Shown here piece after piece: positions 49,216 to 49,558 of a stretch of 64,000 nucleotides of DNA. Position numbers and translations under genes: made by a program. Under the pieces are notes generated by a model, which saw only the letters and a program-made list of their open reading frames with translations, was not told the origin of the DNA and searched no databases. The stretch covers positions 308,698,001-308,762,000 of the forward strand of contig OZ024741.1 of the NCBI GenBank assembly GCA_964016885.1, written 5' to 3'. How positions within the stretch are numbered: position 1 is the first letter of the stretch; each line of letters starts with the position of its first letter. The stretch comes from Eledone cirrhosa (taxonomy: Eukaryota).

Positions 49216-49558
49216 GTGAGGTTTTTTTTACAAAATGAAAAATAACCGAGGTGTCCTACACGAGTGAAAGTATAAAGAAAAAGAGATGAAATCGAAAATG
49301 CAACTGGAGTCTTATTTTTTTTTTAAATATATATATTTATTTGGTTCCTTTACCGGTTTCGCAGTTCTTCTGCTTTTCAAAAGGTGAGTTGAGATGGAGG
49401 GTCTGTGGTTTTTCTCACATCTTTTGAAACTCCATCTCAACTCACCTTTTGAAAAGCAGAAGAACTGCGAAACCGGTAAAGGAACCAAATAAATATATAT
49501 ATTTTTAAAAAAAATAAGACTCCAGTTGCATTTTCGATTTCATCTCTTTTTCTTTATA
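49209..49558. mobile_element. Family D element with about 129-bp inverted arms (49271-49399 / 49430-49558)
   Basis: Near-perfect reverse-complement arms, (TA)n on both sides, hammerhead in each arm. Confidence 0.75.
49445..49482 (+). ncRNA. Type I hammerhead motif with U3-A8 core TTGAAAA (family D); mirror copy at 49347-49384 on the minus strand
   Basis: CCTT TTGAAAA GCAG AAGAA CTGC GAAA CCGG TA AAGG; degenerate relatives at about 16785-16822 (+), 17079-17117 (-) and 50733-50768 (-). Confidence 0.72.

What the first reader, a model, noticed from the sequence alone, without database searches (positions are those of the whole stretch)
49445..49482. Family-wide U3-A8 compensatory swap in the hammerhead core (family D)
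Seen: the core reads TTGAAAA instead of CTGANGA at 49449, in the mirror copy, at about 16788 and at 50759-50765, and TTGGAAA at about 17107-17113. Stems covary between copies (stem II GCAG/CTGC versus GCAT/ATGC; stem I CCTT/AAGG versus TTT/AAA). Established: C3 and G8 form a tertiary Watson-Crick pair, and U3-A8 is a tolerated but rare replacement. Inference: the double change fixed across diverged copies points to selection for activity. Searches requiring CUGANGA would miss the whole family.
Basis: partly seen in the sequence, partly recalled or inferred. Interest (0 to 1): 0.8.

Follow-up and report, generated by a model that had tools for sequence, protein, structure and literature searches.

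The report
Penelope-element hammerhead, U3-A8 core
The motif is a hammerhead-ribozyme-shaped sequence in the end repeat of a very abundant Penelope-like jumping gene, with a U-A pair where most hammerheads have C-G; it likely cuts RNA only weakly and in pairs (untested), and this swap is already in print for such elements, so it is a new example rather than a new kind.

Summary
Observation confirmed. 49445-49482 is a minimal type I hammerhead motif with a U3-A8 core. 11,084 of 11,192 genome matches are U3-A8 and none is C3-G8. It lies in the terminal repeat of a young Neptune-type Penelope-like element (RT plus GIY-YIG). The window holds only a head-to-head stub. U3-A8 in natural hammerheads (2011) and in Penelope-like elements (about 1,300 Schistosoma hits, 2014) is published, and this scan noted it before in other genomes. 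Fixation within one family is inheritance, not selection. Constraint shows between families: a sister family with near-saturated silent sites keeps 18 of 19 core positions, and 32 of 32 motifs beside related elements pair 3 with 8. Activity is not shown. Verdict: new member of a known kind. The A13C sister family is the more unusual item.

The parts
49445..49482 (+).
   Evidence: same letters as the motif in full-length elements
49347..49384 (-). Identical motif in the inverted arm of the same insertion
49211..49558 (.). Head-to-head pair of 5'-truncated element ends inserted in (TA)n; arms 49271-49399 and 49430-49558
   Evidence: 127 of 129 bases complementary; 97-98% identical to the terminal repeat of full-length element L077
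49211..49270 (-). Extension ('tail') present on one arm only; in full-length elements it runs up to the start of ORF1
   Evidence: one-sided tails are described for these elements in PMC8557442 (passages)
16629..16899 (.). Older inverted pair of family A. Motif at 16784-16821 (+) keeps U3-A8 but has G12A and a stem II mismatch; the other arm has lost most of the core and stem II
17033..17157 (-). Old family A-like copy; motif 17080-17117 with A6G and G17
50711..50810 (-). End of sister family B; motif 50733-50768 with U3-A8, 5-bp stem II, 3-bp stem I and the family-wide C13

Best explanation
The motif is the minimal type I hammerhead sequence in the terminal repeat of a young Neptune-type Penelope-like retroelement, with an inherited U3-A8 core pair; it likely works, weakly and only as a pair of copies, to cut the element's tandem transcript. 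Shown: anatomy, copy number, position about 170 bases before ORF1's frame and about 1.05 kb after the RT-endonuclease ORF, and U3-A8 in two sister families whose nearest relatives with DNA are C3-G8. Inferred: U3-A8 arose once in the ancestor of families A and B, replaces the C3-G8 tertiary pair, and two copies complete stem III through the ACCGGU palindrome. The window copy itself is a truncated stub; a read-through transcript is predicted to fold into one long hairpin, so this copy is likely inert.
For: 28 of 30 loci picked by the endonuclease end carry the motif 1.0-1.4 kb downstream (one is the query locus); 34 of 34 motifs in 20 stretches around long-ORF copies are U3-A8. ORF2 has RVT_1 (E 4.9e-6, below cut-off) and GIY-YIG (E 3.7e-6, above cut-off), with a Cys-rich linker before the endonuclease. 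A versus B: 56% amino-acid identity, four-fold sites 33% identical against 27% at saturation, and one alignable non-coding block of about 120 nt that ends at the motif's 3' end; 18 of 19 core positions equal, 62 of 89 upstream, background downstream. One compensatory pair in each of stems I and II. In 83 external loci, 32 of 32 GAAA-type motifs pair 3 with 8: 26 C-G, 4 U-A, 1 A-U, 1 G-C, with U-A at five separate places of the tree. Folding: monomer hammerhead +0.7 kcal/mol, double hammerhead -18.9. Literature: PMC4209133, PMC3088659.
Against: No cleavage or expression data. Sister family B has C13 in 29 of 30 sampled copies and in 20 of 20 motifs beside long-ORF copies, yet is young. Family E has intact ORFs and no motif found by my descriptor in 12 stretches. 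U3 pairs with A17 in the predicted minimum-energy folds (dimer -20.3 against -18.9), like the proposed C3-G17 trap (PMC3884650). In one type III hammerhead scan only the G3-C8 swap rescued activity (PMC9901934). The fourth stem I pair is broken in about 54% of laid depth. Stem I has probability 0.07 in a 210-nt context fold. The conserved block includes 90 nt upstream, so promoter or intron constraint may contribute.
Confidence: 0.75

Rival explanations
1. The motif in families A and B descends from a hammerhead but no longer cleaves. It is kept as part of a promoter, intron or protein-binding block of the terminal repeat, and U3-A8 is a relic.
For: Family B fixed C13 and still made more than 5,000 copies. 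Family E appears to lack the motif. Conservation extends 90 nt upstream over TATA-like and splice-donor-like letters. U3-A17 pairing is predicted. PMC8557442 notes that elements without canonical hammerheads proliferate well.
Against: The core is more conserved (18 of 19) than the upstream block (binomial p 0.003 against 65%). Conservation stops where stem I ends, and both stems show a compensatory change, which points to RNA structure. 3-8 pairing holds in 32 of 32 external motifs.
Confidence: 0.2
2. The A-rich string resembles a hammerhead by chance in an AT-rich palindromic repeat such as a MITE.
For: TTGAAAA is common in AT-rich DNA (18 occurrences on both strands of the window); no Rfam family reaches its gathering score; the window element is a palindrome.
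Against: The palindrome is two truncated ends of a coding retroelement. The motif lies where family C and external relatives have canonical hammerheads, several with the same CCGG palindrome.
Confidence: 0.02
3. U3-A8 with A17 was selected as a deliberately slower switch, so that cutting happens only in tandem transcripts or with a protein's help.
For: U3 and A17 are both kept in A and B over near-saturated silent divergence; the trap is predicted at about 0.7 kcal/mol per core.
Against: External U3-A8 motifs have A, U, U and C at position 17: no pattern. No kinetic data.
Confidence: 0.03

Closest known systems
U3-A8 minimal hammerheads of Cercyon Penelope-like elements in Schistosoma mansoni (Cervera and De la Pena 2014, PMC4209133)
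   Same: Type I motif in the terminal repeat; U3-A8 core (their S. mansoni(4) row has the same seven core letters, supplement part 2); short palindromic helix III; mostly single truncated copies and nearby opposite-strand pairs; missed by the standard descriptor.
   Different: Host and clade (Neptune-type here); no extra base between A9 and stem II; four-base palindrome; A17; at least 11,000 exact copies against about 1,300 hits; a sister family with C13.
Natural U3-A8 hammerheads (Perreault et al. 2011, PMC3088659)
   Same: The same covariation, reported in several natural examples and cited as active in vitro.
   Different: The motif here shows no stable stem III or evident tertiary contact, so tolerance seen there may not carry over.
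Neptune clade of endonuclease-positive Penelope-like elements (Craig et al. 2021, PMC8557442)
   Same: RT followed by a Cys-rich linker and GIY-YIG; partial tandems and inverted truncated copies; one-sided tail; microsatellite insertion.
   Different: Here an upstream ORF1 overlaps the RT ORF in the -1 frame. Their Fig. 1 legend mentions ORF1 frameshifts, but I could not see for which clades.

Membership tests
Minimal type I hammerhead of Penelope-like elements | Core N3 U G A N N8 A ... G A A A ... U H with 3-8 able to pair | tested here: met
   Family A: U3-A8, GAAA, UA. Family B departs at position 13.
Minimal type I hammerhead of Penelope-like elements | Stem I of at least 3 bp, stem II opening with G10.1-C11.1 | tested here: met
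   4 bp (3 bp in an older subfamily) and 4 bp; one compensatory pair in each between A and B.
Minimal type I hammerhead of Penelope-like elements | Short palindromic stem III that needs a dimer | tested here: met
   ACCGGT palindrome; monomer fold +0.7, double hammerhead -18.9 kcal/mol (prediction only).
Minimal type I hammerhead of Penelope-like elements | Located in both terminal repeats of an RT + GIY-YIG element | tested here: met
   L074, L077, L080 and L090 have same-strand motifs on both sides of the ORFs; domains.
Hammerhead ribozyme (catalytic) | Site-specific self-cleavage after N17 | not testable with these tools
   No assay possible.
Hammerhead ribozyme (Rfam models) | Gathering-score match to an Rfam hammerhead family | tested here: not met
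   0 matches in the window; the canonical C3-G8 minimal motifs in the window are missed too, so this says little.
Neptune clade | CX2-5CxxC linker before a C-terminal GIY-YIG endonuclease | tested here: met
   Cys-X4-Cys-X2-Cys before the endonuclease in P0001; per PMC8557442 this linker is shared with Nematis.
Neptune clade | RT phylogeny with named Neptune references | not tested
   The tree held no named reference elements.

The most novel reading that the evidence does not exclude
Families A, B, C and E form a natural series in one genome: canonical core, U3-A8, U3-A8 plus C13, and no core, all in young elements with intact ORFs. Either B is an active hammerhead with a core variant (C13) that I did not find in print, or the motif has taken a non-catalytic role. 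Either result would test directly whether Penelope-like elements need their ribozyme.
Probability: 0.25. Interest if true: 0.55.

Novelty: new member of a known kind. Interest (0 to 1): 0.25.

Why it matters
The U3-A8 swap itself adds one more host to a published variant. The practical point stands: over 16,000 exact-pattern motifs in this genome are invisible to CUGANGA searches. The role of hammerheads in Penelope-like elements is still open (PMC8557442, passages). The four related families found here differ in core state and all have intact young copies, so they offer ready material for that question.

Tried and rejected
DNA search of the own genome with the 70-base stretch found nothing because common words are skipped; patterns worked. 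Rfam by E-value listed only microsatellite and hairpin look-alikes among the best 150 of 548 rows. The repeat finder was swamped by (TA)n. A within-family covariation test was rejected for lack of power. No RNA holder was listed; this is no evidence on expression. Laid contigs of unrecorded type showed no variant at 1% or more inside positions 2058-2089 of L077, but rows near contig ends and beside the skipped repeat are dropped, so I do not count it. The closest external proteins (P0003-P0012) have no DNA, so their cores are unknown. The tree is a quick one; the careful search did not finish. No stable structure is conserved after the slippery heptamer. Lunse et al. 2017 and Przybilski and Hammann 2007 could not be read; I rely on them only as cited by others. 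A search for A13 variants of hammerheads gave nothing relevant.

Full report
Observation. 49445-49482 reads as stem I (4 bp), U3 U G A A A8 A9, stem II (4 bp, 5-nt loop), GAAA, CCGG, UA, stem I. An 18-mer from it has 14,865 matches in the 3.0-Gb genome and its reversed control has 0. With a 31-mer, 11,084 matches are U3-A8, 64 have another base at 3 and all keep A8, and 44 have U3 with another base at 8. None of 11,192 is C3-G8. By my count of those lists 35 are C3-A8 and 22 are U3-G8, so about 0.07 doubles are expected from independent mutation.

What it belongs to. The window element (49211-49558) is a head-to-head pair of truncated ends in (TA)n, 127 of 129 bases complementary and 97-98% identical to the terminal repeat of L077. 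An endonuclease fragment upstream of one copy led to full-length elements: terminal repeat with the motif, a 409-codon ORF1 with no Pfam match, a 775-codon ORF2 with RVT_1 and GIY-YIG matches, about 1.05 kb of untranslated sequence, and the motif again. 28 of 30 loci picked by the ORF end have the motif downstream, and 34 of 34 motifs in 20 stretches are U3-A8 under a pattern that left 3 and 8 open. Sixteen intact ORF2 copies differ by 0.5%, so the family is young. The Cys-rich linker, inverted truncated copies, one-sided tail and microsatellite target fit Neptune-type Penelope-like elements as described in PMC8557442 (passages read). The host was not determined.

The other window copies. The mirror copy is not independent. 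16788 has lost G12 and a stem II pair; 17113 has A6G and G17. C13 is in 29 of 30 sampled copies and 20 of 20 motifs beside long ORFs in 14 stretches, two of which are C3-A8; only 86 genome matches have another base there. B is also young (12 intact ORF2 copies, 0.8%).

Is there selection? Sharing a base within a family is descent. Between families the test has power. A and B are 56% identical in ORF2, with 44 of 133 four-fold sites equal (33%, against 27% at saturation). The only non-coding block that aligns is about 120 nt and ends at the motif's 3' end. The core matches at 18 of 19 positions, the 90 nt upstream at 62 of 89, and the 100 nt downstream at background. Each stem shows one two-sided change. 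A third family, C (46-49% identical), has a canonical core at the matching place in 56 of 59 motifs (loci may overlap). In 83 external loci, a descriptor blind to positions 3 and 8 found 32 distinct GAAA-type motifs on the element strand: 26 C-G, 4 U-A, 1 A-U, 1 G-C and no mismatch. One further U-G hit with GGAA lay inside an ORF, and the opposite strand gave 3. Some loci are near-duplicates, so the shuffle value of 4e-8 overstates the case. The six non-C-G motifs lie outside long ORFs. A quick tree of 46 rows, from the 31 external loci I labelled plus four own families and 11 proteins without DNA, puts A and B in one clade (support 99). Seven of the eight external rows nearest that clade, and family C, are C3-G8, and U-A appears at five separate places. 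So the 3-8 pair is under constraint in these elements, and U3-A8 likely arose once in the A+B ancestor.

Against activity. B has spread with C13, a departure from the core consensus given in PMC7151607 (passages); that A13 changes are strongly harmful in minimal hammerheads is my recall, not a call. Family E has intact 796-codon ORFs and no motif found in 12 stretches, only relic-like letters. With U3, the cleavage-site A17 can pair with it, and does so in the predicted lowest-energy monomer and dimer; PMC3884650 (passages) describes the analogous C3-G17 trap for minimal hammerheads. PMC9901934 (passages; figure and supplement not read) found that only G3-C8 rescued a type III hammerhead, all other doubles in that region being low. 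The outer stem I pair is broken in about 54% of laid depth. For the window copy, read-through RNA folds as one hairpin of -223 kcal/mol.

Mechanism. Most likely the two terminal repeats of a tandem element, 4.7 kb apart in L077, or two transcripts, pair through ACCGGU to form a double hammerhead (-18.9 kcal/mol against +0.7 for the monomer fold) that cuts slowly after A17. This follows the model of PMC4209133, where a Schistosoma minimal motif was inactive alone and weakly active as a dimer. Cleavage, expression and purpose are inferred here.

What is known. PMC4209133 (parts 1-3 of 4 and supplement part 2 read) reports U3-A8 in Cercyon elements, a descriptor for it, about 1,300 hits, and a row with the same seven core letters. 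PMC3088659 (section 8 and passages) first reported natural U3-A8. Searches for this family or for C13 (listings only) found no report. Lunse 2017, Przybilski 2007, repeat libraries and the supplements of PMC8557442 were not seen and may hold them. Earlier notes of this scan record the same variant in at least five other genomes and none on this genome or sequence.

Verdict. Real, correctly read, family-wide, and a new member of a known kind. Interest 0.25.

Noticed in passing
window 50733-50768 (-); L091-L120, L136-L149: Sister family B has fixed C13 (GCAA) on top of U3-A8 in about 5,000 copies, including young copies with intact ORFs. I found no report of such a natural core.
   Followed up: partly
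L077 3371-3461; L136, L246-L257, L369: Four related families have ORF1 overlapping the RT ORF, with a T TTT TTA heptamer near the start of the RT frame (A 16 of 16, B 12 of 12, C 9 of 10, E one checked), likely a -1 ribosomal frameshift site. ORF1 frameshifts are mentioned for some Penelope-like elements in PMC8557442.
   Followed up: partly
L369-L380: Family E has intact 796-codon ORFs, a microsatellite-filled untranslated region and no hammerhead found by my descriptor, only relic-like letters.
   Followed up: partly
L077 about 2000-2184: Donor-like letters upstream and a pyrimidine tract ending in AG downstream suggest the motif lies inside a 5'-UTR intron; donor-like letters recur in B and C.
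   Followed up: no
window 30803-30845 (+), 31543-31607 (+), 31340-31404 (-), 49915-49976 (-): Canonical C3-G8 minimal hammerhead motifs of other repeat families; the 31340/31607 pair forms a long perfect-looking palindrome.
   Followed up: no
L311 1968, L316 116: External Penelope-like loci with A3-U8 and G3-C8 cores, so all four Watson-Crick states occur.
   Followed up: partly
window 40303 and 40429; 48800-48890 and 50380-50472: Other repeated elements: two related direct copies near 40300-40430, and an inverted pair flanking the 49 kb region.
   Followed up: no
L346, L347, L348; P0014, P0039, P0043, P0058: Close relatives of this animal retroelement sit in records labelled as bacterial genomes or symbiont proteins, likely host contamination.
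   Followed up: no
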